This document shows, piece by piece, positions 17,437 to 30,787 of a stretch of DNA of 64,000 nucleotides. Source of the DNA: an uncultured Clostridia bacterium (GTDB taxonomy: Bacteria; Bacillota; Clostridia; Oscillospirales; Acutalibacteraceae). Below the pieces are notes generated by a model. It ran no database searches, was not told where the DNA came from, and was given only the letters and a program-made list of their open reading frames with translations. The position numbers and the translations under genes were made by a program. Location of the stretch: the NCBI GenBank assembly GCA_944384925.1, contig CALWVF010000039.1, positions 32,087 to 96,086 on the forward strand. The letters run 5' to 3'. Within the stretch, counting starts at the first letter, position 1. Every line of letters begins with the position of its first letter.

Positions 17437-20205
17437 TTAAACTTTTAAATTTTCAATCTTATATTTTTTACCTAGATAATTAATCCTACCATTTTCATCT
17501 TCTATTGGGTATTCTATTGTTCCTCCAGTGTTATAAATTATATTCTCAAATATTTCTTTGCCAAACATTGCAAATAGTATGTCCTTGTTATAATTAACCT
17601 TGTCCTTGTAAAACAAATCAACTAAACAATTTACAATCTTATATGTATTAGAATCCAAGCAAAATAACTTGTTCCTATAAAGTGTATAGATATTAACCAC
17701 ATCATTATTTAAACCGTCATCGTATTTATTCTTTTCATGTGATTTAATAAGTCCTTTTAAAACCCCTCTAAGCTCATCAACTATTGAAGATACCCCCATA
17801 TAAAAAGCTTTATCAAAAGTATTCCCCTCTCTTTTATATAAATCAATAAAATTTATATTTCCTTCTGCCTTTACATTAAATTTAATATCTTTAGATACAT
17901 TTTCCATGTAATGTGACAATACATTCATGGCACTATTATTATCTATAACAGGGCAATGTTTATAATATCTTTTGATAAATTCATCCTGCTCTCTACTTCT
18001 TTTCTCTAAGCACAACACCTCCTTCAAGGTTATTCCCCATCTAGCCTTTGTACTTAACTCATAGTCCTGCCTCCACTTCTTATAATCCTTTCTTACATGA
18101 TTATAAAGATAAATAAAAAAGTATGGATATTTATTGCACAATAAAGAATTGTTTAACGCTTTTCTGCATTTAATCTCTTCACTATCCGTATTTTCAATCT
18201 CATTATACCTATTCCAAATATTAGGGATACCCTTTACAGGTTTGCCTATTTTAGCTTTATCAATTTGAGCAGACTGCATTTTACAAGCCATTCTCATTCT
18301 ATTAAGCAATATGTTATATTCTTTTGTATCACTCGAAAAATTATCCATTAATGTTCTAATTATAGTTGCACAGTTTGTAATTCTTCCTATAATACTCCCA
18401 AATGTAAATTTATCAGCTAATTGTAAATCTCTTTCAGAAAGCACCACCTTATTCGGTTTAGGAGCCTGATATAAAACTGGTAAGTCATCTGAATATGTAC
18501 TTTGAATAATAATTGGTTCACTTGTAGTTGCTAAAATATCGTAGTCAAAGTCACTACCCGCAAACCTTAACGTGTACTCATCATATATATTTGTAATAAT
18601 TCCTGTATAACAATATTTAAACCACTCGTCAAGACTATTATCCTTTTGTAAGTCTACAACCAAATGCTCACTTAAATAAGTAAGCGGTGAACGCATACAA
18701 TCTACTTTTGATACGTTTTTGTTATTCCAATAGCTAGAGTAAAAATGTCCTGATTTTATTAAGCCCTTTACCTCCAATCCACATGCATGTTCCATAAAGG
18801 CAAAGCTATCAGGTACAATGACTTGAAAATTTCCATCAACTAAAATTTTACCCATACAAGCATTGTTAATTTTTGTTTTTATATTTTTGTTTATTTTAGA
18901 CTTTATATATTTGTCATTTAAAAGCTCTTTATTGGCAATTAAACATTTAAGCCAATAGTTTGATGAACCCTTCATAAAATTTTTTAATTTGTCTTCCGTT
19001 AAGCTTGTACCCATTAAAAATAATATTGTATACCAATAATTATCATAAGAGACCCCTTTTAGATATTCTACTGTCTTTAAGCAAAGACTTTTTACTTTAT
19101 TACTGTCTAAATTAAGGGTCTGGATAAATTGATAATTTAATTTAAGGATATCCTTATCCTGCTTTGGTGTAAAAAGAGATACTCCCCAATCAAGCTTATT
19201 CTTTTTACAATTAGCCTTATACTCTTCCAAACTGCCATATGTATTCCAAAGTTTAAATTGACTTTCTGTAAGGATTATATCTATGTCCCTTAAATCAGCC
19301 TTTTTAGTAGTTCCATTCTCATCCTTATAAATCGTTTCAATCTCATAATTATCATTGTTGTAAATCTTACAAAACCTTTGTATGTCAAACACGCTTACCA
19401 TGCCTTTAATCCATGGCGCTCTTATGCACCACTGTGCTGGAATATAATCAAGTTCTAATTCATCCGCCCATTCCTTTGCCTTATGAGGAGTTATAAGTCC
19501 GTTGCCATCAAATAGGTTAAATTCAACAGGGACAGTTTTTCTTTCAATAATATCATCTTCGTCCTTACTGTTTGTCTCCGTAACCCACCACACATCAACG
19601 TCCTTTGTTCTATAGCAGTCTGGAATCACGCAAAAGCGAGGTGCTGTGACCACTTTTGTAGCCGAGCTTGATATACCTAAATATGCATTATATTTAGACG
19701 GTGTAATCGGTATGTCTCTATTCCTTCCATTGTCTAGTCTATTTAACAATTGTTCAGCTATACGTTCTTCAACAAACACAACTCTTGAAGTTCTACCCTG
19801 TGCAGCTGAACACGATACCCTGATATATTTTTTATTATTAACGTATAATCCATTTTGAAAGATATAATCGTAATCTTTATTTGATTCCATAGTAATTACA
19901 GCGTATTCTTCTATAAGCATTGTATCATAGATGTACCTCTGCAAATACTTTACTTTATTCAAATTTTCCTTATTTTTAGCTTGTCTCTTAATTTTGTCTC
20001 TCTGATTATAGTATACTTCTATAGATTGCTTATCATGCTTTTGACCTTTAATGTCCCTTATTAGTCTTAGCATTTGATTATCTGAAAGTGAAATAATCTT
20101 TTTATATTTTAATGCCTCCTCAAAGGAAATGTTTATTTTAAAATTATATTCTTTTAGCCATGAAGAATTAAATTTGTAAACATAAAACTGCCTATTTACT
20201 TGCAT
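17437..20205 (-). CDS. YonO/QDE-1-like single-subunit two-barrel RNA polymerase (putative phage late-gene RNAP)
   Basis: 922 aa. CMRSPLTYLSEH followed 45 aa later by FAGSDFDYDILAT. This parallels the RNPCLHPGD...GSDLDGD catalytic-loop arrangement of cellular RdRP/YonO-type polymerases. The gene heads the late operon. Confidence 0.6.
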   Translation of the reverse strand: MQVNRQFYVYKFNSSWLKEYNFKINISFEEALKYKKIISLSDNQMLRLIRDIKGQKHDKQSIEVYYNQRDKIKRQAKNKENLNKVKYLQRYIYDTMLIEEYAVITMESNKDYDYIFQNGLYVNNKKYIRVSCSAAQGRTSRVVFVEERIAEQLLNRLDNGRNRDIPITPSKYNAYLGISSSATKVVTAPRFCVIPDCYRTKDVDVWWVTETNSKDEDDIIERKTVPVEFNLFDGNGLITPHKAKEWADELELDYIPAQWCIRAPWIKGMVSVFDIQRFCKIYNNDNYEIETIYKDENGTTKKADLRDIDIILTESQFKLWNTYGSLEEYKANCKKNKLDWGVSLFTPKQDKDILKLNYQFIQTLNLDSNKVKSLCLKTVEYLKGVSYDNYWYTILFLMGTSLTEDKLKNFMKGSSNYWLKCLIANKELLNDKYIKSKINKNIKTKINNACMGKILVDGNFQVIVPDSFAFMEHACGLEVKGLIKSGHFYSSYWNNKNVSKVDCMRSPLTYLSEHLVVDLQKDNSLDEWFKYCYTGIITNIYDEYTLRFAGSDFDYDILATTSEPIIIQSTYSDDLPVLYQAPKPNKVVLSERDLQLADKFTFGSIIGRITNCATIIRTLMDNFSSDTKEYNILLNRMRMACKMQSAQIDKAKIGKPVKGIPNIWNRYNEIENTDSEEIKCRKALNNSLLCNKYPYFFIYLYNHVRKDYKKWRQDYELSTKARWGITLKEVLCLEKRSREQDEFIKRYYKHCPVIDNNSAMNVLSHYMENVSKDIKFNVKAEGNINFIDLYKREGNTFDKAFYMGVSSIVDELRGVLKGLIKSHEKNKYDDGLNNDVVNIYTLYRNKLFCLDSNTYKIVNCLVDLFYKDKVNYNKDILFAMFGKEIFENIIYNTGGTIEYPIEDENGRINYLGKKYKIENLKV

Positions 20206-21323: not shown

Positions 21324-21513
21324 TTAACCGCTCTCCATATAACCTTATTTAGCATTCATAAATTTATTCCTTCAGGTCTATACCAGACATAATAATATAA
21401 TAATACATATAAACTTTTGTGAAAATCTTTCCTCTTTTGCTCTCTATAGTGCAATATTACACCATTTTTAGAGGTATAGTGATATTAATTATATTTAATA
21501 GGGAGGCAACTCT

Positions 21514-23148
21514 GTGGTGGCATATTTAAATAATTCTGTACACTGGTGTAATAACTGTAAAATACCTATTATTCAGCCTAATATTAAACACTTTAAAAAA
21601 TGTCCTTTATGTGGAGAATATACTAAATATTTAAGTAAGGATTTACGTCCTGTTTTTCCAGAGGAGCGCTTACTGCTTGAATTAATTACTAAAGTAAAAC
21701 CTAATGCATATTCTACTTGTTCCGTTTGGTGTAATGCATCAACATACTATATAAACGGTGAAGCATGTAAACTAAATAACAATATTTTTAAAAATGTAGA
21801 CATAGAAAGAGTGAGAAGTTCTTTTTACAAATATAATAAATCAAACATATATAAATATTTTGACGAATACATGGAGAAGTTTACTATAGCAAATCTAGAA
21901 CATCTAAACTATATAAAATACTTAGCTACTAAGTTTATAATTGATGTATCAAATACATACCCAGACATGTATAAATATATATCATTCTCTGGTGGGAAAG
22001 ACTCAACTGTTGTTGCCGACTTAGTTATAAAAGCTTTAGGTAATACATCTATTCCATATATTTTTTGTGATACTACTCTTGAATATCCCTACACATTAGA
22101 CTACATAAAAAGACTTAAAGAAAACCCAAATATGTTAATAAAGATTGCTAGAAACAAAGAACATGATTTTTACAGTATGTGTGACGATATAGGAGTTCCC
22201 ACAAGAATGAAAAGATGGTGTTGCACTATATTCAAGACAGGAGCAATAAGTAAGCTCCTTAAAGTGCTCTTTGATGACAAAAGGTTAATATATTTTAATG
22301 GTCTTAGAAATTCAGAGTCTAATATACGAAGCAAATATGAAAGCATTAGTTCATCAAGTGAACAAAAAATACAAAACCAAATATCTGTATCTCCAATAAT
22401 AAAATGGAAGGACTATGATGTTTGGCTTTATATTATGAGTGAAAAAATAGACTTTAATTATGCCTACAGATTAGGATTCCCAAGAGTAGGCTGTTTTTGT
22501 TGCCCAAATGGTAGCACTAGAAATGAAATTCTTGCAAAAATATTTTTGCAAGATAAGACAGAAAGATGGTACAAATATTTACTAAACTTTGCGAATAAAT
22601 TAGGGGCTGATAATCCTTATAAATACGTAAATGATGGTCTGTGGAAGTCAAAGCAGGGTGGTAATGGTATAAAATCATACGATGAAGTGTCTATATCGAA
22701 TAAAGTTTGTACAATAGATGAAAACGCTGTCTCTTATAGCATTGGCAAAGATATTACAAATGAATTTTATACACTGTTTATCCCATTTGGAGATGTCAGA
22801 AGAGATTTAGGTAAAAAGCTATTAGATGAAACTTTTGTATTGAAAAATGGAACTCCTATTATTTCTATCCAAATAAAGCCCAATAATATAGTCAAAGTTA
22901 AAACCATGAATGTTAAAGACCATAAATCCCTTCAAAAACAGATAGCATACCAAATAACAAAATACAAGTTATGTCGAAGGTGTTATAAGTGTGAGGCTGT
23001 TTGTCCGAAGAAAGCTATAAGTATAGAAAATAATGAGTACATTATAGATAAAAGCAAATGTATCCACTGTATGTCATGCACAAAGAACGAATACATACAT
23101 AGTGGTTGTTTAATGAAAAAATATTTAAGGGTGAGTGAAGAAAAATGA
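21514..23148 (+). CDS. DndC-like PP-loop ATP pyrophosphatase (PAPS-reductase family) with N-terminal zinc ribbon and C-terminal 2x[4Fe-4S] ferredoxin domain
   Basis: GTG start after GGGAGG. CNNC-x15-CPLC. ISFSGGKDSTVV (PP-loop). MKRWCCTIFK and PRVGCFCCPNGS cysteine motifs. CRRCYKCEAVCP and CIHCMSC...GC ferredoxin motifs. Confidence 0.7.
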   Translation: MVAYLNNSVHWCNNCKIPIIQPNIKHFKKCPLCGEYTKYLSKDLRPVFPEERLLLELITKVKPNAYSTCSVWCNASTYYINGEACKLNNNIFKNVDIERVRSSFYKYNKSNIYKYFDEYMEKFTIANLEHLNYIKYLATKFIIDVSNTYPDMYKYISFSGGKDSTVVADLVIKALGNTSIPYIFCDTTLEYPYTLDYIKRLKENPNMLIKIARNKEHDFYSMCDDIGVPTRMKRWCCTIFKTGAISKLLKVLFDDKRLIYFNGLRNSESNIRSKYESISSSSEQKIQNQISVSPIIKWKDYDVWLYIMSEKIDFNYAYRLGFPRVGCFCCPNGSTRNEILAKIFLQDKTERWYKYLLNFANKLGADNPYKYVNDGLWKSKQGGNGIKSYDEVSISNKVCTIDENAVSYSIGKDITNEFYTLFIPFGDVRRDLGKKLLDETFVLKNGTPIISIQIKPNNIVKVKTMNVKDHKSLQKQIAYQITKYKLCRRCYKCEAVCPKKAISIENNEYIIDKSKCIHCMSCTKNEYIHSGCLMKKYLRVSEEK

Positions 23149-24338
23149 TTATAAATAAATCTATAAACAAAGACAACATAAGCCAGAAAACAAAAATAAA
23201 TAGGAAACAAGCAATAGAAATTATCCTTTCAGGTGGGAATCCATCAAACAAAGCGGTACATAACATTATTAGTAGCGTTTCACAACAAGACTTAGATTTT
23301 ATTTGTATACAGCATAAAATCCTACGTCCTTATATTAATTTCGGGGAAATATACAAATCATGTGAAAATTATGGTAAGGGATTTATCCCTGTTCTTATAT
23401 CTATGATTATAAAAAATAATATAGATTATATTGTTATTGAAAAGGACGGAGAAGAAGTGGATTTAAATTCCAGTATTTTTGAAGATATTGAACTTAATCC
23501 CTCACTCTATACATTAAAATTTATAAGCAATCATAGTCAATATGATTTATATAAAAATATATTTTCAAGGAATGATGATGGACTAAATATATTTTCTAAC
23601 ATAGTTTACGCCATGCAAGCATGGTTTTTTAATTTAAGTAAATATACAATAATCATATCTAAAAGCTATATGGGTCAAGGCAAATTTAATCCTATCAAAA
23701 AAGAAATTACTGAATTTAAATCTTCCTTAAAAGTTCTACAAAATAACCCTTACTATTACATTAGCGAGATTCTCCCACAAATATTTGAAATTGACACGTA
23801 TGCTCAATTAAAAGGTGCAAAAGAATATATTGATTCAACATTGGAAAGTTTAAGAAGTACCCTAGTTACAGACATTTACCACTTATTCCCCACAGGTTTA
23901 AAATCATGGTGTAAAAATCTACCAGAAGTAACTAAACAGAAAATTTTTGAAAATGGTGAAGAATATTTTTTATCTTTATGTAAATCAGATATTTTAAATA
24001 ATGAATTATTAGATAATATAGTAAATTATATTATAGGAATACCAATAGAAAATTGGAATGAGGATACCCCTTTAATATTTTATAATCGTCTTACGGAAAT
24101 CAAAAGTGTTATTGAAAACTCTACAATACAAAATGAAAAAAGCAAGTTTTTAATAAGGTATACACATGATGGTGAAGCAGAAATCTGCAAAGTATTAAAT
24201 ATGCATGATAATTTAGACAAACAAATAAAAGATATGTTTATAAATGATTTTAAAAAGTTATTTAATGATTATGGTAACAGCATATCCCACTCTGATAAAG
24301 TAGGACTAGCATTAAAAATAGCTATGGGGGTAGATTAA
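23145..24338 (+). CDS. Hypothetical protein (operon member, no recognisable domain)
   Basis: 397 aa. ATGA overlap with the upstream gene. No motif recognised. Confidence 0.5.
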   Translation: MIINKSINKDNISQKTKINRKQAIEIILSGGNPSNKAVHNIISSVSQQDLDFICIQHKILRPYINFGEIYKSCENYGKGFIPVLISMIIKNNIDYIVIEKDGEEVDLNSSIFEDIELNPSLYTLKFISNHSQYDLYKNIFSRNDDGLNIFSNIVYAMQAWFFNLSKYTIIISKSYMGQGKFNPIKKEITEFKSSLKVLQNNPYYYISEILPQIFEIDTYAQLKGAKEYIDSTLESLRSTLVTDIYHLFPTGLKSWCKNLPEVTKQKIFENGEEYFLSLCKSDILNNELLDNIVNYIIGIPIENWNEDTPLIFYNRLTEIKSVIENSTIQNEKSKFLIRYTHDGEAEICKVLNMHDNLDKQIKDMFINDFKKLFNDYGNSISHSDKVGLALKIAMGVD

Positions 24339-24342
24339 TAAA

Positions 24343-25476
24343 ATGATTTATTTAGATAATGCTGCAACAACATATCCAAAACCAATGTGTGTTTATGATG
24401 ATGCGGATAAATTTTATAGAGAATTTGGGGTATACCCTGGTCGTGGAAACCATTACATGTCTATGAAAGTAGATAACTTGATTAATGAGACAAGACAAAA
24501 AATATTAAATCTATTTAATGCTCCAATTAATTACAAAGCTGTATTTACTCCATCCGCTACTTTTTCGGCTAATTACATATTAAATGGTTTAAGTATAAAA
24601 GATAATGCAAACATCTATATTTCTCATTTTGAGCATAACTCTATTTTAAGACTGCTAAATAATCTAAAAAAGAGAACAAATATTAATCTATCATTTTTAG
24701 ATGCAAATCGTCAAACTTTGATGTATAATATAAATGAAATTAAAAATCAATTTATAGAATTTAATCCAGATATCGTTATTCTTAACCACGCAAGTAATGT
24801 TTTTGGCAATGTTGCCCCTGCTCTTGAAATATTCAGCCTAGCAAAAAAATATGGTGCTACTACAATACTAGATTGTTCCCAAACATCAGGACTTATAGAA
24901 GTTAATTTAAAACAAATAAAGTCTGATTTTACAATATTCGCAGGTCATAAAACATTGTATTCACCTTTTGGTATCGCTGGTTTTATTATGAATAATGCAA
25001 AGAATATTAAACCATTAATATTTGGTGGGACAGGCTCAAACTCTGCGAGCGCTAACATGCCAAAAACATATCCTGAAAGATTAGAAGCTGGGAGTATAGA
25101 TGTTTATGCGGTTGCTGGGTTATATTCATCTTTGGACTGGATAAATAGAATTGGTATTAATAATATATTAGAAAAAGAATTGTCCCTACATAAAATTGCA
25201 ATAGAACGACTTTCTAAACTAAAAAACGTAAAAATATATGTGCCATTATGCGAACATATAGGGATTATTTCTTTTAATATAAAAGGCTATAATACTGATG
25301 AAGTTGCCTTAATATTAAACAATAATAATATTGCTGTAAGATCTGGATTACACTGTGCTCCTGATGCACATAAATTTGTCGGTACTTTTCCTAATGGAAC
25401 AGTACGAGCATCCTTTAGTTATTTTAATGATGTTGAAGATATTAATATGTTGTTATCTATTTTAAAAAATATATAA
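24343..25476 (+). CDS. Cysteine desulfurase (class V PLP aminotransferase fold, SufS/CsdA-like)
   Basis: 377 aa. YLDNAATTYP N-terminus, FAGHKTLYSPFG (PLP lysine), VRSGLHCAPDAH (catalytic Cys). Confidence 0.8.
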   Translation: MIYLDNAATTYPKPMCVYDDADKFYREFGVYPGRGNHYMSMKVDNLINETRQKILNLFNAPINYKAVFTPSATFSANYILNGLSIKDNANIYISHFEHNSILRLLNNLKKRTNINLSFLDANRQTLMYNINEIKNQFIEFNPDIVILNHASNVFGNVAPALEIFSLAKKYGATTILDCSQTSGLIEVNLKQIKSDFTIFAGHKTLYSPFGIAGFIMNNAKNIKPLIFGGTGSNSASANMPKTYPERLEAGSIDVYAVAGLYSSLDWINRIGINNILEKELSLHKIAIERLSKLKNVKIYVPLCEHIGIISFNIKGYNTDEVALILNNNNIAVRSGLHCAPDAHKFVGTFPNGTVRASFSYFNDVEDINMLLSILKNI

Positions 25477-25502: not shown

Positions 25503-28500
25503 GTGAAGATTATTGAATCAAATGATATATTTGGAAAAAAAACATCTTCTCTTTTAAAAGAACAACTAGAAGCCTCAAAAAATTTCATTTATATCTCTGT
25601 AGTAAGCAATATATATAACGAAAGATGCAAAACTAATCCATTTTTTAAAAGCTTAGAAATCAACTGTAATACTTTTAAATCTAAAAACGATTTTGAGTCA
25701 TTTATAACAAAACAAGTAAGAAAGCAAAAAAGCTATCTTCCTTTAGTAGACATGTACTTTATTCTAAAAAGATTAATAGATTCCTATTTTAATGAAAATG
25801 AGTCCAAACACACCTTATTTAAAACTTTATATTACAAGTTATTTGAATTATATAAATTTCTTATTTTTCATGATATAGAAAAGATTGATAACGAGACATT
25901 GCAATACATAAAAAAGAAATACTCCGATAGTTATTTTACTATATTTGATATTTATAATAAATATATAGATATAGTCAATCAGATTATTAATTATGTAAAT
26001 TCATGCGAACAAAATCAAATACATTATAAAATTCAAAAATTAAATGTAAGTCTATTTATAAAAAAATCTGAAGCTATACCTTTTAATACCTTTATTTCAA
26101 GGCAAAAAGAAGAAATAAATAACATTTTAAAAAATATTGACACACTATACTTAGATGGTTTTATTGCTTTCAATGATTTTGATAAATATATAATTTCTAC
26201 TGCTCAAAAGCTTAATAAAGAAATTGTATTTATTACTAAGAACCTACATGATGACATTAATTATGAATTTTTATTAAATAATGTTTATGGCTATGGAATA
26301 AATCAAAACATTGAAAATATTATTCTCTCTGAAAATGAAAATGGTACTACTAACAGTATAGATTATGTCAGAAATAATATTTATACACATAACATAAACA
26401 TTTCTCGTGATAAATCAGATTTAATAGATGACGGTGGAATAAACTTTATCTACCCCTTTCTTAATAGAAATGAAGAAATAAAATATATTGTTAATTCTAT
26501 TAGTGAAATAATACAGAAAGAAATTAAAAGTGGAAATGTAGAGCATATTACTGATTTAATAGAAAATGATATTTTAATTGTATCCGCAGTAAATAAAGAT
26601 TTAATGGCTAAACATTTTGATAATCAATTTACAAAAGTAGGATTATTTGTTTTTGATAAAATTCCTGAAGGATTATTTGAAAAGGAAATCGACATTAACA
26701 CATTTAAAAATATTTACTATAACATAAAGGATTTCCTTTCCGATAACGTGTCATACAAAGATGGTACTGCTCTAAATAATCAAGAAAAATTAGTACTATT
26801 TTATAAAGCATTTTTTAGAATAAAAGTACCCACAAGGCTAGATTCATTATTCTCATCTCCTATCTTAGATTTCATATTTCAATTATATAGTATCTCTAAT
26901 GAGGGCATAACCATAGAAAAATTTAAAGCTATTCTTTTTTCAAACTGGTACTATCATGTGGGTATAGATAATATAAAATGGGACACATTCCTGGGTGCAT
27001 TTTGCCAAATAGAGCTATACTTTGAAAATAAAGCATCCCTAAAAGAATGGATAGATGAGATAGTAAGAATAATAAAGCTAAGTGAAAATATAAAAGATGA
27101 TGATAAATATAAATTCCATCCTTTTAATTCTGTATCGCATTATGATTTAAAACAATTACTTAGTATCATGAGAGAGTTAGACTCTCTCTGTGTAATGTTA
27201 TCCTCTGCACCATCGGATTTAAATTCACACATTTCTCTACTCAAAGATAAAATTATCTATTCAAATAGGATGTTTGAATTAGAAGATGATAAACTGACGG
27301 ACTCTCAAAAGATAATAAAAGAGTTTTGCAATATACTTAATAATTTCACCTCTGATTCTTCCGTACAGAACCTTGATTCTGATTTCTTTATAAAACATTT
27401 AAAGAATATATTATCATCCATAGAAGTCGAAGAAGAAAGTAATAAACATAATTTTAATCTACAAATTCAAAATATGCTAAATCTTAAACATTATAAGTAT
27501 GTGTTTTTCATGGGGTTGGAAAATGAAGAATATCCTAGAAAGCATGAAAATATATTTCCATTTAATCAAGACATTATTGATATTATTAGGCTTCTTAAAA
27601 TCAATTCTTATAATATAGACATATATGACCATAATCTTTTGATGGAAAATTTCTTTTTCAAAAATGTACTAGATTTTACTGAAAAACATATTTGGTTTAC
27701 TTGTTCACAATATGAGGGCAAACGTAAAAATCATTTTTCTATATATGCTGAAGAAATTTCTACTTCATTCAATCATGAGCTAAGCTTTACTCCTCCGTAC
27801 ATAGATAAAGAGAATCACAACAGTACTAATATCACAAAATCCAAGACTATTAAAGCTATTGATAAAAAAGTATACCCATTGAAAGAATTGGTTACTTTCC
27901 CCCTTTGTCCAAAGCTATATTATCACTTGTACGTAAACCCTATACCATTATACTATAAAAGTAAAATACATCTTAAAATGTATGCTGAAGCTGTTATGTA
28001 TGCAGACCTAATGGAAAGATTTATGACGTATAATCTTTTAAATAAGAAATGGTACACATCCAATAGTGATGAATCCTTTAAAATACTTGATGATTTATCC
28101 GAAATAAGTATTAATGAAATTAAAAAATACTTTGGTTTTTTGCGAATACCTGACTTTGACCAAATAAAAAAAAGAGTACCTTTTAGAATTAAAAGAATTA
28201 TAGAAGATTACATAATTAAAAATCTTAAATATCATACTTATACCATTGTTAAATCTAACGGCAAAGTATATCCTTGTGGTGGATTCGATGTAAAACTTGA
28301 ATACGATACAGCTATATTCAGCAACGAAAAGGGTAGTAGAAAAATTGACCAAAATAAAATTTTCTTAGACTTTCTTACTTTAAAATGTACTGCCAGAGAA
28401 GTTAAAGAAAAACATTACAAAGACATGTTAAACCTGTTAAATAGTAAAAATAGATATCTTGATAGAATATTTTATGCTAATAGAATGATAAGCAAAATAA

Positions 28501-28706
28501 ATGTTCAGTTTGACAGCAATGTTGATAGGTTTATTAATGGATATGATGGTGGTATAGAACGTGTTGCAAATTTAAGGAAAGATATTCTTATCACTGATTT
28601 TTCTAAGGTGAAACCCTACCCTAGTAACTTTTGTGACTATTGTATTGCTAGAGATATTTGTATGGGAGGAAAAGAGTCACAGAAGGTTGTGGAGGTGATA
28701 GATTGA
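25503..28706 (+). CDS. AddB-like protein: degenerate helicase-like N-terminal region + C-terminal iron-staple PD-(D/E)XK-type nuclease domain
   Basis: 1067 aa. Vestigial P-loop (IFGKKTS). C-terminal Cys tetrad FPLCPKLYYH ... CDYCIARDIC (C-Xn-CxxCxxxxxC), as in AddB/Cas4/Dna2. The catalytic (D/E)xK motif was not cleanly identified. Confidence 0.6.
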   Translation: MKIIESNDIFGKKTSSLLKEQLEASKNFIYISVVSNIYNERCKTNPFFKSLEINCNTFKSKNDFESFITKQVRKQKSYLPLVDMYFILKRLIDSYFNENESKHTLFKTLYYKLFELYKFLIFHDIEKIDNETLQYIKKKYSDSYFTIFDIYNKYIDIVNQIINYVNSCEQNQIHYKIQKLNVSLFIKKSEAIPFNTFISRQKEEINNILKNIDTLYLDGFIAFNDFDKYIISTAQKLNKEIVFITKNLHDDINYEFLLNNVYGYGINQNIENIILSENENGTTNSIDYVRNNIYTHNINISRDKSDLIDDGGINFIYPFLNRNEEIKYIVNSISEIIQKEIKSGNVEHITDLIENDILIVSAVNKDLMAKHFDNQFTKVGLFVFDKIPEGLFEKEIDINTFKNIYYNIKDFLSDNVSYKDGTALNNQEKLVLFYKAFFRIKVPTRLDSLFSSPILDFIFQLYSISNEGITIEKFKAILFSNWYYHVGIDNIKWDTFLGAFCQIELYFENKASLKEWIDEIVRIIKLSENIKDDDKYKFHPFNSVSHYDLKQLLSIMRELDSLCVMLSSAPSDLNSHISLLKDKIIYSNRMFELEDDKLTDSQKIIKEFCNILNNFTSDSSVQNLDSDFFIKHLKNILSSIEVEEESNKHNFNLQIQNMLNLKHYKYVFFMGLENEEYPRKHENIFPFNQDIIDIIRLLKINSYNIDIYDHNLLMENFFFKNVLDFTEKHIWFTCSQYEGKRKNHFSIYAEEISTSFNHELSFTPPYIDKENHNSTNITKSKTIKAIDKKVYPLKELVTFPLCPKLYYHLYVNPIPLYYKSKIHLKMYAEAVMYADLMERFMTYNLLNKKWYTSNSDESFKILDDLSEISINEIKKYFGFLRIPDFDQIKKRVPFRIKRIIEDYIIKNLKYHTYTIVKSNGKVYPCGGFDVKLEYDTAIFSNEKGSRKIDQNKIFLDFLTLKCTAREVKEKHYKDMLNLLNSKNRYLDRIFYANRMISKINVQFDSNVDRFINGYDGGIERVANLRKDILITDFSKVKPYPSNFCDYCIARDICMGGKESQKVVEVID

Positions 28707-30787
28707 AATATACTGATTTAAATAATAATGAAGTTTTATTGACTAATGCACAATTAGAAGTGATAAAAAATGATACATACCCTTTATATATTACTGCCCA
28801 AGCTGGAACTGGCAAAACTGAAACTCTAATTCAAAAAGTTTTATATATCCTTGAACATGATAATAATGCAAGCCTTAAAAATATGGTTATAATCTCTTTT
28901 ACCAATAAAGCAACTGATGAATTAAAGCAAAGGATTTTTTATAGTCTTTATCGTAAAAGCTTATTATACTATAGAGACGGCAAAATAGGCACTGCAAATA
29001 GATTAAAAAATGAAGCATACATGGTTAATATTTCTAATATATCAACTATACATGTTTTCTGTGAAAGCTTATTGCGTGAATATGGGATACATATAAACTG
29101 CTCCCCCACATATAAAACTTCATTATCTTCAATTAAAGTAAATGATATAATCAGTAATATTGTTAGGCAAGCATATTCAAAAGAAAACGTCCAAGAAATT
29201 CCTGAAATAACAATGATATCATTAATATCTAAAATACTCGAATATAATAATAACTGCGGAATATACACAGTTAATAACATATACAGAAATACTCAAACTC
29301 CTCTAGGAAAACTAAGAAGCAAATTTATTGATATATATAATGAAGTTGTTTTGGAACTTGAAAACACTAAGTTAAGCCGGAATCTATTAAGTTTAAATGA
29401 TTCTATTATCAAAACTACTGAACTTCTAAAGAATGAATATGTAAGAGAAAAAGTAAAGTCAAAGTATAAATATATATTTATAGACGAATATCAAGATACA
29501 AATACTCCTCAATATAATTTAACAAAAGAACTAATTGATATAGGTATAAATGTATTTCTCGTTGGTGATGAAAAACAGGCTATATATGAATTTAGAGGTT
29601 CAGGAATAGAGAACTCTAAACAAATGCATAAATACATATCAAAATTCAATAATGTACAATTATCATTAAATGAAAATTTTAGGAGTGACCCAAATGTTAT
29701 AAAAGCTATTAATCATATCTTTACTAGCAATATTAAATTCTATAATAAATTAGTTGGTTTCGACAAATCACCATTATCCATACCAAACTGCAAAGAGATA
29801 TCAGAAGACAACCCTGTATGGATAGATTCAAAAAATAATATAATAGATATAATAAAAAAAATTAAAAAAGAAAAAACCATTAGATGTAATCCTATTAGCT
29901 ATAGTGATATTGCGATTCTTTGCCGTAATAATTATATGATTGACAGTATTGGAGAAGCTTGTAAATCTGCTGGTATCCCTGTAGAAATTATAGGAGGACG
30001 TAGCTTTTATAAAACAAAAGAGGTAATAGACATTTATAAATTTTTTAACTATATCATATATAAGCGTGATGAATATAAAAAGGAACTATATTTAACCGAT
30101 GCATACAATTCATTTATTAATTATGACTGTGGTAACTTTGATGAATTTTTAAACAGCTTATGTGAAAATTCCAAAAACAATTCTGCTAATGATGTAATAG
30201 ATTACATAATTAATAACACCATGCTAGAACAGTATTACATGAATAATAATTCATATCAAGCTATTTCAAATTTATCAAAATTAAGTGCTATAGCGAACAA
30301 TACTTTAAATACAAATTTCACTTCTGCACTTAACTTTTTAGATTTCATAGCAAGGAAAATAAATCATGAAGCCGAAGAGGACGAAGCTCCTATATCTGAA
30401 AACAATAGAAAAAAAGGAGTTGTTTCCTTATATACAATACATAAATCAAAGGGCTTGTCCTTCCCTATAGTAATTATAGCTAACACGGATAAAGCATTAT
30501 TAAATCCAAAGAAATTCCCAAAAGTCATAATGGAATGTAAAGATGGTAAAACAGCAGTCGGATTCAGTGAGACAATTATTGGTAAAGAGGATATACAGTA
30601 TAAAAAATTATTAGATATGCGTATATCAAAACTTATAGAAGAAGAATTACGGTTACTGTACGTTGCTTGCACAAGAGCTAAACATATGTTAGTTTTTTCC
30701 TCTAACACATCTATTGACAAATATGGTCAACAATTACCAGATTCATGGTTAAAATGGATTATAGAATCAGGATATTTTAATACATAG
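28703..30787 (+). CDS. UvrD/AddA-type SF1 helicase (no nuclease domain)
   Basis: Probable TTG start at 28703 (GGAGGTGA SD, TTGA overlap with the upstream stop); the track ORF starts at 28658. Motifs AQAGTGKTETL, FIDEYQDTN, VGDEKQAIYEFRGS, NFRS, TIHKSKGLSFPIV, LLYVACTRAK. Confidence 0.8.
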   Translation: MKYTDLNNNEVLLTNAQLEVIKNDTYPLYITAQAGTGKTETLIQKVLYILEHDNNASLKNMVIISFTNKATDELKQRIFYSLYRKSLLYYRDGKIGTANRLKNEAYMVNISNISTIHVFCESLLREYGIHINCSPTYKTSLSSIKVNDIISNIVRQAYSKENVQEIPEITMISLISKILEYNNNCGIYTVNNIYRNTQTPLGKLRSKFIDIYNEVVLELENTKLSRNLLSLNDSIIKTTELLKNEYVREKVKSKYKYIFIDEYQDTNTPQYNLTKELIDIGINVFLVGDEKQAIYEFRGSGIENSKQMHKYISKFNNVQLSLNENFRSDPNVIKAINHIFTSNIKFYNKLVGFDKSPLSIPNCKEISEDNPVWIDSKNNIIDIIKKIKKEKTIRCNPISYSDIAILCRNNYMIDSIGEACKSAGIPVEIIGGRSFYKTKEVIDIYKFFNYIIYKRDEYKKELYLTDAYNSFINYDCGNFDEFLNSLCENSKNNSANDVIDYIINNTMLEQYYMNNNSYQAISNLSKLSAIANNTLNTNFTSALNFLDFIARKINHEAEEDEAPISENNRKKGVVSLYTIHKSKGLSFPIVIIANTDKALLNPKKFPKVIMECKDGKTAVGFSETIIGKEDIQYKKLLDMRISKLIEEELRLLYVACTRAKHMLVFSSNTSIDKYGQQLPDSWLKWIIESGYFNT

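What the first reader, a model, noticed from the sequence alone, without database searches (positions are those of the whole stretch)
21514..23148. Unusual three-part architecture of the PP-loop enzyme: zinc ribbon + DndC-like core + dicluster ferredoxin
SEEN: an N-terminal CNNC-x15-CPLC zinc ribbon, a ~150-aa linker, SGGKDS, RWCC/GCFCC cysteines, then a C-terminal CRRCYKCEAVCP ... CIHCMSC..GC domain.

ESTABLISHED: DndC binds one [4Fe-4S] cluster through three cysteines. Canonical DndC/SspD, as I know them, have no fused ferredoxin domain or N-terminal zinc ribbon.

INFERENCE: the fused ferredoxin could supply electrons or relay sulfur, replacing missing partner proteins. The zinc ribbon could be a nucleic-acid-binding module.
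Basis: partly seen in the sequence, partly recalled or inferred. Interest (0 to 1): 0.6.

Follow-up and report, generated by a model that had tools for sequence, protein, structure and literature searches.

The report
Long SspD/BrxP-type DNA-sulfur enzyme, known layout
This prophage gene encodes an intact member of a large, already described enzyme family that puts sulfur into the DNA backbone. Its zinc-ribbon and iron-sulfur add-ons are the family's normal make-up; only its gene neighbours are out of the ordinary.

Summary
The architecture is not unusual.

- **Family match.** The PADLOC BrxP model matches almost end to end (E 6.6e-81). More than 6,700 homologs were found, most about 571 aa long and covering 98% of the query.
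- **Conservation.** Among 98 diverse full-length representatives, 91 keep all eight ferredoxin cysteines, 91 keep the four core cysteines, and 72 keep the zinc ribbon.
- **Prior description.** A 2026 NAR paper (PMC12839542) describes the layout for BrxP and "a subset of SspD": PAPS-reductase core, an alpha+beta domain, then a Cys-rich 4Fe-4S ferredoxin-type region.
- **Canonical context.** The 571-aa relatives sit in complete sspD-B-C-A operons. The ferredoxin therefore does not stand in for missing partners.
- **Core cluster site.** RWCC and GCxxC align with the four [4Fe-4S] ligands of APS reductase, so three clusters plus one zinc are likely.

The context is less ordinary. This copy belongs to a small monophyletic clade that always sits in a five-gene cassette: enzyme, a 397-aa protein, cysteine desulfurase, a ~1,000-aa protein and a UvrD-like helicase. 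I show that the 397-aa protein is homologous to the C-terminal third of SspC.

This scan has reached the same verdict on the enzyme in other genomes (e1-1091270, e1-1468418). It has also noted an AddAB-like variant elsewhere (e1-4909370).

The parts
21514..23148 (+). Gene for the 544-aa long-SspD/BrxP-type PP-loop enzyme (alternative GTG start at 21517)
   Evidence: ORF. PADLOC BrxP E 6.6e-81 over residues 37-543. Pfam PAPS_reduct E 6.4e-32. SD GGGAGG at 21501-21506.
21547..21612 (+). N-terminal four-Cys zinc ribbon (C12, C15, C30, C33)
   Evidence: Invariant in 20/20 homologs. All four are present in 72/98 diverse representatives. The model shows beta-hairpins at 8-12, 17-21 and 36-41.
21619..21963 (+). 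Conserved folded N-terminal region (residues 36-150) carrying the RPVFPEERLL motif; function unknown.
   Evidence: pLDDT 87-96. R45-L54 is invariant. P46, V47, F48 and E51 are kept in 83-95 of 98 representatives. No Pfam match.
21979..22506 (+). PP-loop / PAPS-reductase-fold core (residues 156-331). It includes SGGKDS (159-164, nt 21988-22005) and the CC...CxxC cluster site (C236, C237 at nt 22219-22224; C327, C330 at nt 22492-22503).
   Evidence: Pfam PF01507. Foldseek best hits are CysH/APS reductases at 1e-8 and TtuA at 1e-5. RWCC and GCFCC align with HECC and GCAPC of M. tuberculosis APS reductase 7lhr. Core Cys kept in 92-97 of 98.
22720..22971 (+). alpha+beta domain (about residues 403-486), preceded by a low-confidence loop (385-402) that carries the partly conserved C399
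   Evidence: Model strands at 405-409, 427-432, 435-444, 447-455 and 459-464, and helix 470-486. The position matches the Mog1p/PsbP-like domain described for BrxP in PMC12839542; I did not test that fold assignment. C399 is Cys in 64/98.
22972..23109 (+). Ferredoxin-type region with eight Cys (487, 490, 493, 497; 516, 519, 522, 532), read as two [4Fe-4S] sites
   Evidence: Pfam Fer4_9/7/10 at E 1e-5 to 8e-5, just below cut-off. Clostridial ferredoxins 1fdn/1fca and 9g03_E are hit at 1e-3 to 1.5e-4, with Cys aligned for seven of eight. All eight are kept in 91/98.
23145..24338 (+). 397-aa partner protein: stand-alone homolog of the C-terminal third of SspC
   Evidence: The profile of 7 orthologs hits the C-terminal ~365 aa of 1,175-1,217-aa ORFs in six other genomes, best E 4.6e-40. 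BLASTP residues 65-392 vs 841-1204 of a 1,213-aa protein, E 2e-14. That protein is SspC by PADLOC (1.9e-117). No Pfam, PADLOC or PDB-fold match of its own.
24343..25476 (+). Cysteine desulfurase (SspA/DndA role), the sulfur donor
   Evidence: Pfam Aminotran_5 E 3.4e-77. NCBIfam TIGR01977 at 390.5 bits, above its 377 cut-off. PADLOC SspA 6.7e-30 and DndA 2.1e-29.
25503..28706 (+). 1,067-aa conserved partner of unknown family (AddB-like only by motif resemblance)
   Evidence: No Pfam, NCBIfam, PADLOC or PHROG match. hhalign against the genome's own AddB is not significant. C802 plus C1041-x2-C1044-x5-C1050 are seen in the sequence. It is conserved in every cassette copy.
28658..30787 (+). 709-aa UvrD/AddA-like superfamily-1 helicase, the only P-loop NTPase of the cassette
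   Evidence: Pfam UvrD-helicase 2.7e-51 and UvrD_C 3.3e-33. NCBIfam AddA/RecB/PcrA models all score far below their cut-offs.

Best explanation
The gene encodes a long-form SspD / BrxP-type PP-loop ATP pyrophosphatase, the sulfur-inserting enzyme of Ssp-related DNA phosphorothioation systems.

**Shown here**
- Family membership by end-to-end profile match and by tree.
- An intact SGGKDS PP-loop.
- An APS-reductase-type CC...CxxC [4Fe-4S] site in the core.
- A conserved eight-Cys ferredoxin-type tail and a conserved zinc ribbon.
- An adjacent, translationally coupled cysteine desulfurase.

**Inferred mechanism**
1. The desulfurase takes sulfur from cysteine as a persulfide.
2. The PP-loop uses ATP to adenylate a backbone phosphate. 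This follows the TdpC pathway cited in PMC12914056 (ref. 11).
3. Sulfide held at or delivered through the core cluster displaces AMP to give the phosphorothioate.
4. The two ferredoxin-type clusters feed the electrons needed to turn the persulfide (S0) into sulfide, or keep the core cluster reduced.
5. The zinc ribbon is a structural or DNA-contact element, as in TtuA-type enzymes.

**Partners in this copy**
The usual partners SspB and full-length SspC are absent. A stand-alone homolog of the SspC C-terminal region is kept instead, together with a UvrD-like helicase and a ~1,000-aa AddB-like protein. These may present the DNA substrate, or may be the restriction arm.
For: **Profile matches**
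- PADLOC BrxP E 6.6e-81, residues 37-543 against profile positions 21-517 of 779. SspD 1e-15 and DndC 1.8e-11 match on the core only.
- A bona fide sspD-position gene, next to SspB, SspC, SspA and PbeA/PbeC, gives the same score pattern: BrxP 2.4e-78, SspD 8.6e-16.

**Family size and conservation**
- More than 6,700 homologs, mostly 571 aa, covering 98% of the query.
- 292 clusters at 50% identity with E<1e-30.
- Cysteine and PP-loop conservation.

**Tree**
- The window protein falls in a clade of 9 rows (SH-aLRT 100) inside a 27-row group that also holds the canonical 571-aa SspD clade. The forks within that group are not resolved.

**Structure**
- AlphaFold model with pLDDT 80.9 and pTM 0.70. 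The core resembles CysH/APS reductases and TtuA.
- RWCC and GCxxC align with the cluster ligands of APS reductase 7lhr.

**Context**
- Cysteine desulfurase two genes downstream.
- The cassette is conserved in five lineages.

**Literature**
- BrxP plus BrxC plus a desulfurase suffice for phosphorothioate synthesis (PMC12914056).
- The same architecture is described for BrxP and a subset of SspD (PMC12839542).
Against: - No phosphorothioate has been measured for this organism, this clade or this cassette.
- The genome (99.98% complete) has no DUF4007/SspB, and the cassette has no full SspC, BrxC or DndD. PMC12914056 found the BrxC ATPase essential, found BrxC and SspC not interchangeable between species, and found some isolates with sspBCD but no detectable phosphorothioate.
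- The Pfam Fer4 matches are below their curated cut-offs, and the second Cys motif is non-canonical.
- C532 lies in a low-confidence part of the model.
- Archaeal relatives of the same core (PRK13795) are uncharacterised and may act on RNA.
- The roles of the ferredoxin part and the alpha+beta domain are called unclear in PMC12839542.
Confidence: 0.7

Rival explanations
1. The enzyme thiolates RNA (tRNA) or another non-DNA substrate. It would use the same PP-loop and Fe-S chemistry as TtuA, TtcA or NcsA, or as the archaeal PRK13795-type proteins.
For: Foldseek finds TtuA at about 1e-5. NCBIfam's best hits are the uncharacterised archaeal PRK13795 models at 1e-53, below their cut-offs. TtuA also has flanking zinc fingers (established knowledge).
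Against: Its nearest relatives sit in sspD position in operons with SspB, SspC, SspA and Pbe restriction genes. Its own neighbours are a DNA helicase and an SspC-derived protein. The BrxP model fits end to end, whereas the PRK13795 models fit only from about residue 100. It lies on a prophage, next to defence-type genes.
Confidence: 0.1
2. It is a sulfonucleotide (APS/PAPS) reductase with a fused ferredoxin as electron donor: a phage auxiliary metabolic gene for sulfate assimilation.
For: The best solved-structure matches are CysH/APS reductases. The CC...CxxC cluster site of APS reductase is kept. PHROG 424 is labelled PAPS reductase.
Against: The catalytic C-terminal ECG[LIV]H motif is absent here and in all 98 representatives. 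CysH and APS-reductase models score 57 bits against cut-offs of 165-235. This is the only PAPS_reduct-family gene in a 1.46-Mb genome, so no CysD is present. The operon partners are DNA enzymes.
Confidence: 0.03
3. One reading: the fused ferredoxin and zinc ribbon are special additions in this system that make up for partner proteins it lacks.
For: This cassette does lack SspB and the SspC ATPase.
Against: The same domains, with the same invariant cysteines, occur in relatives whose operons hold every Ssp partner and in BrxP fusions of 700-840 aa. The canonical 571-aa form even has one zinc ribbon more. The add-ons therefore predate the loss of partners.
Confidence: 0.05
4. The cassette writes no lasting mark. 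The PP-loop enzyme acts with the helicase and nuclease-like proteins as an effector, for example by adenylating or sulfurating invading DNA, or as a phage counter-defence that marks phage DNA only.
For: It lies on a prophage, and in other copies next to recombinases, lysis genes or tail genes. The usual target-selecting partners are missing. TdpABC shows that small phosphorothioate systems with helicase/nuclease arms exist (PMC12914056, ref. 11).
Against: No precedent is known for this family. The coupled cysteine desulfurase and the kept SspC C-terminal homolog point to the ordinary writing chemistry.
Confidence: 0.1

Closest known systems
Long-form SspD of Bacillota sspD-sspB-sspC-sspA (+pbe) operons (571-aa family, e.g. 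L020 12872-14587)
   Same: 46-50% identity over 98-99% of the length. Same order of zinc ribbon, conserved N-terminal region, PP-loop core with CC...CxxC, alpha+beta domain and eight-Cys ferredoxin tail. Same PADLOC score pattern. A desulfurase sits in the operon.
   Different: The 571-aa form has a second zinc ribbon further upstream. It works beside SspB (DUF4007) and a full 1,200-aa SspC. Here those are replaced by a 397-aa SspC C-terminal homolog, a ~1,000-aa protein and a UvrD-like helicase.
BrxP of BREX type 4 (PADLOC PDLC02510; Bacteroides salyersiae, PMC12914056; architecture in PMC12839542)
   Same: The profile matches residues 37-543 (E 6.6e-81). It has a PAPS-reductase core, an alpha+beta domain and a Cys-rich 4Fe-4S ferredoxin-type region. 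BrxP is shown genetically to be needed for phosphorothioate synthesis.
   Different: BrxP carries a C-terminal DUF4007 (SspB-like) domain, profile positions about 518-779, which is absent here. No BrxC, PglZ or BrxL is nearby.
DndC (TIGR03183) and short SspD (PADLOC PDLC02782, 277 positions)
   Same: PP-loop ATP pyrophosphatase core of the PAPS-reductase fold. Partnered with a cysteine desulfurase. Fe-S protein.
   Different: Only the first ~130-190 core residues match (41 bits against a 290-bit cut-off for DndC). DndC binds its cluster with three Cys and has its own Cys dyad (PMC10853773, PMC12839542). It has no ferredoxin tail.
Assimilatory APS reductase (M. tuberculosis 7lhr, P. aeruginosa 2goy)
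   Same: Same fold. The CC...CxxC ligands of the [4Fe-4S] cluster align.
   Different: No ECG[LI]H catalytic tail, no sulfate-assimilation context, and extra N- and C-terminal domains.
TdpC of TdpABC (An et al. 2025, cited in PMC12914056)
   Same: A phosphorothioate-writing PP-loop enzyme in a compact system. It supplies the adenylated-intermediate mechanism I assume here.
   Different: I could not compare sequences, because no Tdp model or sequence was at hand. TdpC alone suffices for writing, whereas this enzyme keeps an SspC-derived partner.

Membership tests
BrxP / long-SspD family (PADLOC PDLC02510) | Near full-length match to the family profile | tested here: met
   E 6.6e-81, 270.6 bits, residues 37-543 against profile positions 21-517 of 779. 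A true sspD-position gene scores alike.
BrxP / long-SspD family (PADLOC PDLC02510) | PAPS-reductase core followed by an alpha+beta domain and a conserved Cys-rich 4Fe-4S ferredoxin-type region (PMC12839542) | tested here: met
   Pfam PF01507 at 156-331. The model has an alpha+beta domain at 403-486. Eight Cys at 487-532 are kept in 91/98 representatives. The Mog1p/PsbP-like fold assignment itself was not tested.
BrxP sensu stricto (BREX type 4) | C-terminal DUF4007 fusion, and neighbours BrxC, PglZ and BrxL | tested here: not met
   The protein ends 12 residues after the last ferredoxin Cys. There is no DUF4007 anywhere in the genome, although that search rang in no control genome. No BrxC, PglZ or BrxL among the neighbours.
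SspD of SspABCD | Operon with SspB (DUF4007 nickase) and SspC (ORC/Cdc6-type ATPase) | tested here: not met
   Neither is present. Only a homolog of the SspC C-terminal ~365 residues is encoded downstream.
SspD of SspABCD | Adjacent SspA-type cysteine desulfurase | tested here: met
   Gene at 24343-25476. TIGR01977 scores above its cut-off. PADLOC SspA 6.7e-30.
SspD of SspABCD | Produces phosphorothioate in DNA; ATP pyrophosphatase activity | not testable with these tools
   Needs LC-MS/MS of DNA and enzyme assays.
DndC (TIGR03183) | Score above the curated cut-off over the whole model | tested here: not met
   41.4 bits against 290.4. Only profile positions 18-204 of 447 are matched.
APS/PAPS reductase (CysH; TIGR00434, TIGR02055) | Score above cut-off and the C-terminal catalytic ECG[LI]H motif | tested here: not met
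   57 bits against 165 and 235. The motif is absent here and in 98/98 representatives. The CC...CxxC cluster site is, however, kept.
2x[4Fe-4S] ferredoxin domain (Pfam Fer4 clan) | Two CxxCxxCxxxC(P) motifs and a score above the gathering threshold | tested here: inconclusive
   The first motif is canonical (spacing of 3 in 96/98, followed by Pro in 70/98). The second has its fourth Cys 4-11 residues on. The best Pfam score is 25.7 against 27 bits. Clostridial ferredoxins are hit at 1e-3 to 1.5e-4. Cluster content needs Fe/S analysis and EPR.

The most novel reading that the evidence does not exclude
This enzyme clade may be the writer of an undescribed, mobile-element-borne fifth kind of phosphorothioation system. 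In it, SspB and the SspC ATPase have been lost. Only the SspC C-terminal module survives, as a separate 397-aa protein that docks or targets the enzyme. A UvrD-like helicase with a ~1,000-aa AddB-like Fe-S protein would then supply the motor, either to present DNA for sulfur insertion or to destroy unmarked DNA.
Probability: 0.4. Interest if true: 0.6.

Novelty: new member of a known kind. Interest (0 to 1): 0.3.

Why it matters
For the architecture itself, little: it corrects the impression that this is a new fusion. It also shows that routine labels such as 'PAPS reductase' hide a large family of DNA-sulfur enzymes.

Two points have some value:
- The core keeps the four-Cys APS-reductase cluster site. 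Together with the tail this predicts three Fe-S clusters and a zinc, which is a concrete and testable cofactor count for a family whose chemistry is still unsettled.
- This clade keeps the SspC C-terminal module while dropping the ATPase and SspB. That marks the module as the part of SspC most tightly tied to the enzyme, and offers a natural minimal system for dissecting how Ssp/BrxP-type writers are targeted.

Tried and rejected
**The 397-aa protein**
- Tested as a diverged SspB/DUF4007: hhalign probability 0.3%. No Pfam hit for any of 7 orthologs. Its model has no significant PDB fold match; the best is E 0.17, and only multi-winged-helix proteins appear, weakly. Rejected as SspB.
- The link to the SspC C-terminus came only from a whole-genome profile search.

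**The 1,067-aa protein**
- Tested as AddB: no family hit. PDB sequence search found nothing relevant. hhalign against the genome's own AddB was not significant. TIGR02773 finds only the housekeeping AddB in this genome.
- The AddB likeness therefore rests on a short motif and the Cys pattern only.
- Tested as a relative of SspC: not significant.

**Distribution of the cassette**
- Pattern scans for the 397-aa family in GTDB species genomes and in IMG/VR found nothing.

**Structure searches for the enzyme**
- The viral structure library holds only short core-only PAPS reductases.
- No coordinates of the model were available to me. I could not measure Cys-Cys distances or cluster-to-cluster distances.

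**Literature and promoter**
- A literature search for the helicase/desulfurase/PAPS-reductase combination found nothing.
- The promoter scan was uninformative: 75 sites found against 74 expected.
Full report
**What is there.** The ORF at 21514-23148 (+) encodes 544 aa. A GGGAGG ribosome-binding site lies 7 nt upstream. A second GTG at 21517 gives the 543-aa form found in the protein collection.
- C12xxC15-x14-C30xxC33 (the spacer is 14 residues, not 15)
- SGGKDS at 159-164
- RWCC at 234-237
- GCFCC at 326-330
- C487xxC490xxC493xxxC497P
- C516xxC519xxC522-x9-C532

**Family matches.**
- Pfam gives PAPS_reduct at 156-331 (E 6.4e-32). Fer4_9, Fer4_7 and Fer4_10 match at 483-524 with E 1e-5 to 8e-5, just under their curated cut-offs.
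- NCBIfam's best hits are the archaeal 'hypothetical protein' models PRK13795, at 1e-53 and below cut-off. The DndC, CysH, APS-reductase and CysD models match only the core, at a fraction of their cut-offs.
- PADLOC is decisive. BrxP scores E 6.6e-81 over residues 37-543, matching profile positions 21-517 of 779. SspD scores 1e-15 and DndC 1.8e-11, both on the core only.

**Is the architecture unusual? No.**
- A word-indexed search found more than 6,700 homologs. Most are 571 aa at 46-50% identity and cover 98-99% of the query.
- An exhaustive HMMER search of 50%-identity cluster representatives found 292 clusters at E<1e-30. Most of the best 150 align from about residue 6 to about residue 540 in proteins of 510-640 aa. 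A further set of 700-840 aa has BrxP length.
- In 20 close and mid-distance homologs, all sixteen motif cysteines are invariant.
- In 98 full-length representatives at 27-47% identity, 91 keep all eight ferredoxin Cys, 91 all four core Cys, 72 all four zinc-ribbon Cys, and 65 all sixteen. SGGKDS is kept in 95-98.
- The literature already has this. PMC12839542 (NAR 2026, section 34) describes the type 4 BREX PAPS reductase as having an extra alpha+beta domain (Mog1p/PsbP-like) followed by a highly conserved Cys-rich region reminiscent of a 4Fe-4S ferredoxin-type domain. It says the arrangement also occurs in a subset of SspD.
- PMC12914056 (Nat Commun 2026) shows genetically that BrxP plus BrxC, with a cysteine desulfurase, make phosphorothioate DNA. 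It treats BrxP as an SspD-SspB fusion.

**Anatomy from the model.** The AlphaFold2 model, built on the 20-sequence alignment, has mean pLDDT 80.9 and pTM 0.70. In order along the chain it shows:
1. A zinc ribbon, with hairpins at 8-21 and 36-41.
2. A well-ordered N-terminal region up to about residue 150 (pLDDT 87-96). It carries the nearly invariant RPVFPEERLL motif, so it is not a linker.
3. The PP-loop core.
4. A disordered loop at 385-402 bearing the partly conserved C399.
5. An alpha+beta domain at about 403-486.
6. The ferredoxin-type tail.

Foldseek against the PDB finds only the core: CysH/APS reductases at about 1e-8, FAD synthase and FMN adenylyltransferase, then TtuA at about 1e-5 and LarE. 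The viral structure library holds only short core-only phage PAPS reductases.

**Cofactor sites.**
- The phmmer alignment to M. tuberculosis APS reductase (7lhr) puts RWCC on HECC and GCFCC on GCAPC. From established knowledge of APS reductases, these are the four ligands of the [4Fe-4S] cluster.
- The catalytic ECG[LI]H tail of sulfonucleotide reductases is absent here and in all 98 representatives.
- The tail aligns with clostridial 2x[4Fe-4S] ferredoxins (1fdn, 1fca, 9g03_E), Cys on Cys for seven of eight positions.
- The eighth Cys (C532) comes 9 residues after C522 instead of 3. In the family this spacing is 4-11, never 3.
- I therefore read the protein as carrying one core cluster, two ferredoxin-type clusters and a zinc. 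This is inference until Fe/S is measured.

**Context of relatives.**
- The 571-aa family sits in sspD-sspB-sspC-sspA operons. In the locus I scored with the defence models, the neighbours are DUF4007/SspB (PADLOC 2.4e-57), a 1,213-aa SspC (1.9e-117) and an Aminotran_5 gene, followed by PbeA and PbeC.
- The enzyme in that canonical operon gives the same PADLOC pattern as the window protein: BrxP 2.4e-78, SspD 8.6e-16.
- Hence the ferredoxin and zinc ribbon are not replacements for missing partners. They were there first, and the canonical form even has a second zinc ribbon.

**Context of this copy.**
- The window protein and its eight nearest 90%-identity clusters (54-81% identity) form a clade with SH-aLRT 100. 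The clade lies inside a 27-row group that also holds the canonical 571-aa SspD clade; the forks within that group are not resolved.
- Every member I looked up, in four independent metagenomic lineages plus the window, sits in the same cassette: enzyme (545-549 aa), a 396-399-aa protein, cysteine desulfurase, a 984-1,070-aa protein and a UvrD-like helicase.
- In one lineage the last two are fused into a single 1,695-aa protein. In another the helicase carries a RadC domain.
- The cassettes lie next to serine recombinases, a sigma-70 region-4 protein, phage lysis or tail genes, or a type I restriction system.
- In the window the cassette lies inside a prophage, between the late genes and a tyrosine recombinase.
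- The genome is 1.46 Mb and 99.98% complete. It has no other PAPS_reduct gene and no DUF4007. It has its own separate AddB.

**The 397-aa neighbour.**
- It has no family, defence-model or PDB fold match of its own.
- It is not detectably SspB.
- A profile of seven orthologs, searched over 399 genomes of the same class, hit the C-terminal part of 1,175-1,217-aa ORFs in six genomes, with best E 4.6e-40.
- In the locus I examined, that ORF is SspC. Residues 65-392 of the window protein align with SspC residues 841-1204 (BLASTP E 2e-14, 23% identity).
- The cassette has therefore kept the C-terminal third of SspC as a separate gene, and lost the ORC/Cdc6-type ATPase and SspB.

**The 1,067-aa protein.**
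- It could not be tied statistically to AddB or to SspC.
- A helicase-like 'YVFFMGLENEEYPR' stretch and the C802 ... C1041xxC1044x5C1050 pattern resemble AddB. The comparison of the Cys pattern is from my own knowledge of AddB.

**How it most likely works.**
- Shown: family membership, an intact PP-loop, conserved cluster and zinc sites, and a coupled desulfurase.
- Inferred: the desulfurase forms a persulfide. The PP-loop adenylates the target backbone phosphate, following the pathway reported for TdpC (An et al. 2025, cited in PMC12914056). Sulfide at the core cluster displaces AMP. The ferredoxin-type clusters supply the two electrons needed to reduce the persulfide sulfur, or keep the core cluster reduced.
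- C399, on its flexible loop, and C223 are candidate persulfide acceptors. They are only partly conserved (64 and 56 of 98).
- The SspC-derived protein probably docks or targets the enzyme.
- The helicase pair is either the substrate-presenting motor or the restriction arm. I cannot tell which.

**Rivals.**
- An RNA-thiolating role cannot be excluded for the family's archaeal branch. It fits this copy's relatives and neighbours poorly.
- A sulfate-assimilation role is contradicted by the missing catalytic tail, the low model scores and the genome context.

**Verdict.**
- The enzyme is a new member of a known, recently described family.
- The unusual part is the cassette, which is the subject of a separate note on this window (e1-2955306). 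A related form was flagged in another genome (e1-4909370).
- The same verdict on the enzyme's architecture was reached elsewhere in this scan (e1-1091270, e1-1468418, e1-2101544). I read those notes only after my own analysis.

Noticed in passing
window 23145-24338 (+): The 397-aa 'unknown' protein is a stand-alone homolog of the C-terminal ~365 residues of SspC (profile E 4.6e-40; BLASTP 2e-14 against SspC residues 841-1204). I found no description of such a split.
   Followed up: yes
window 17437-20205 (-): The 922-aa protein matches Pfam RdRP (PF05183, 8e-11) and PHROG 8308 (1e-150). It is a YonO-type single-subunit RNA polymerase at the head of the prophage late genes.
   Followed up: no
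window 25503-28706 (+): The 1,067-aa protein matches no library. It has C802 plus CxxCx5C at 1041-1050 and a 'YVFFMGLENEEYPR' stretch that resembles the genome's own AddB, but the profile comparison is not significant.
   Followed up: partly
L004 14209-19296; L007 13414-16182 and 16286-17668: The cassette varies between lineages. In one, the ~1,000-aa protein and the UvrD-like helicase are fused into a 1,695-aa protein and the desulfurase lies on the opposite strand. In another, the helicase carries a C-terminal RadC domain and is followed by a DUF4417 gene.
   Followed up: no
L020 1-14587 (genome G380): A canonical Bacillota locus has sspD(571 aa)-sspB-sspC-sspA directly followed by PbeA- and PbeC-type genes. 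It is an Ssp writer joined to a Pbe-type restriction module.
   Followed up: partly
alignment A1, N-termini of the 571-aa family: The canonical 571-aa SspD form carries an additional zinc ribbon (WCxxCN...CxxCG) upstream of the one conserved in the window protein.
   Followed up: no
window 21649-21675 (residues 46-54): The motif RPVFPEERLL is invariant among close homologs. P46, V47, F48 and E51 are kept in 83-95 of 98 distant ones. Its function is unknown and I did not find it discussed in the papers read.
   Followed up: partly
whole genome G000: The host genome is only 1.46 Mb (99.98% complete, 40 contigs, about 30% G+C in the window). It has a single PAPS_reduct-family gene, the one in this prophage.
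   Followed up: partly
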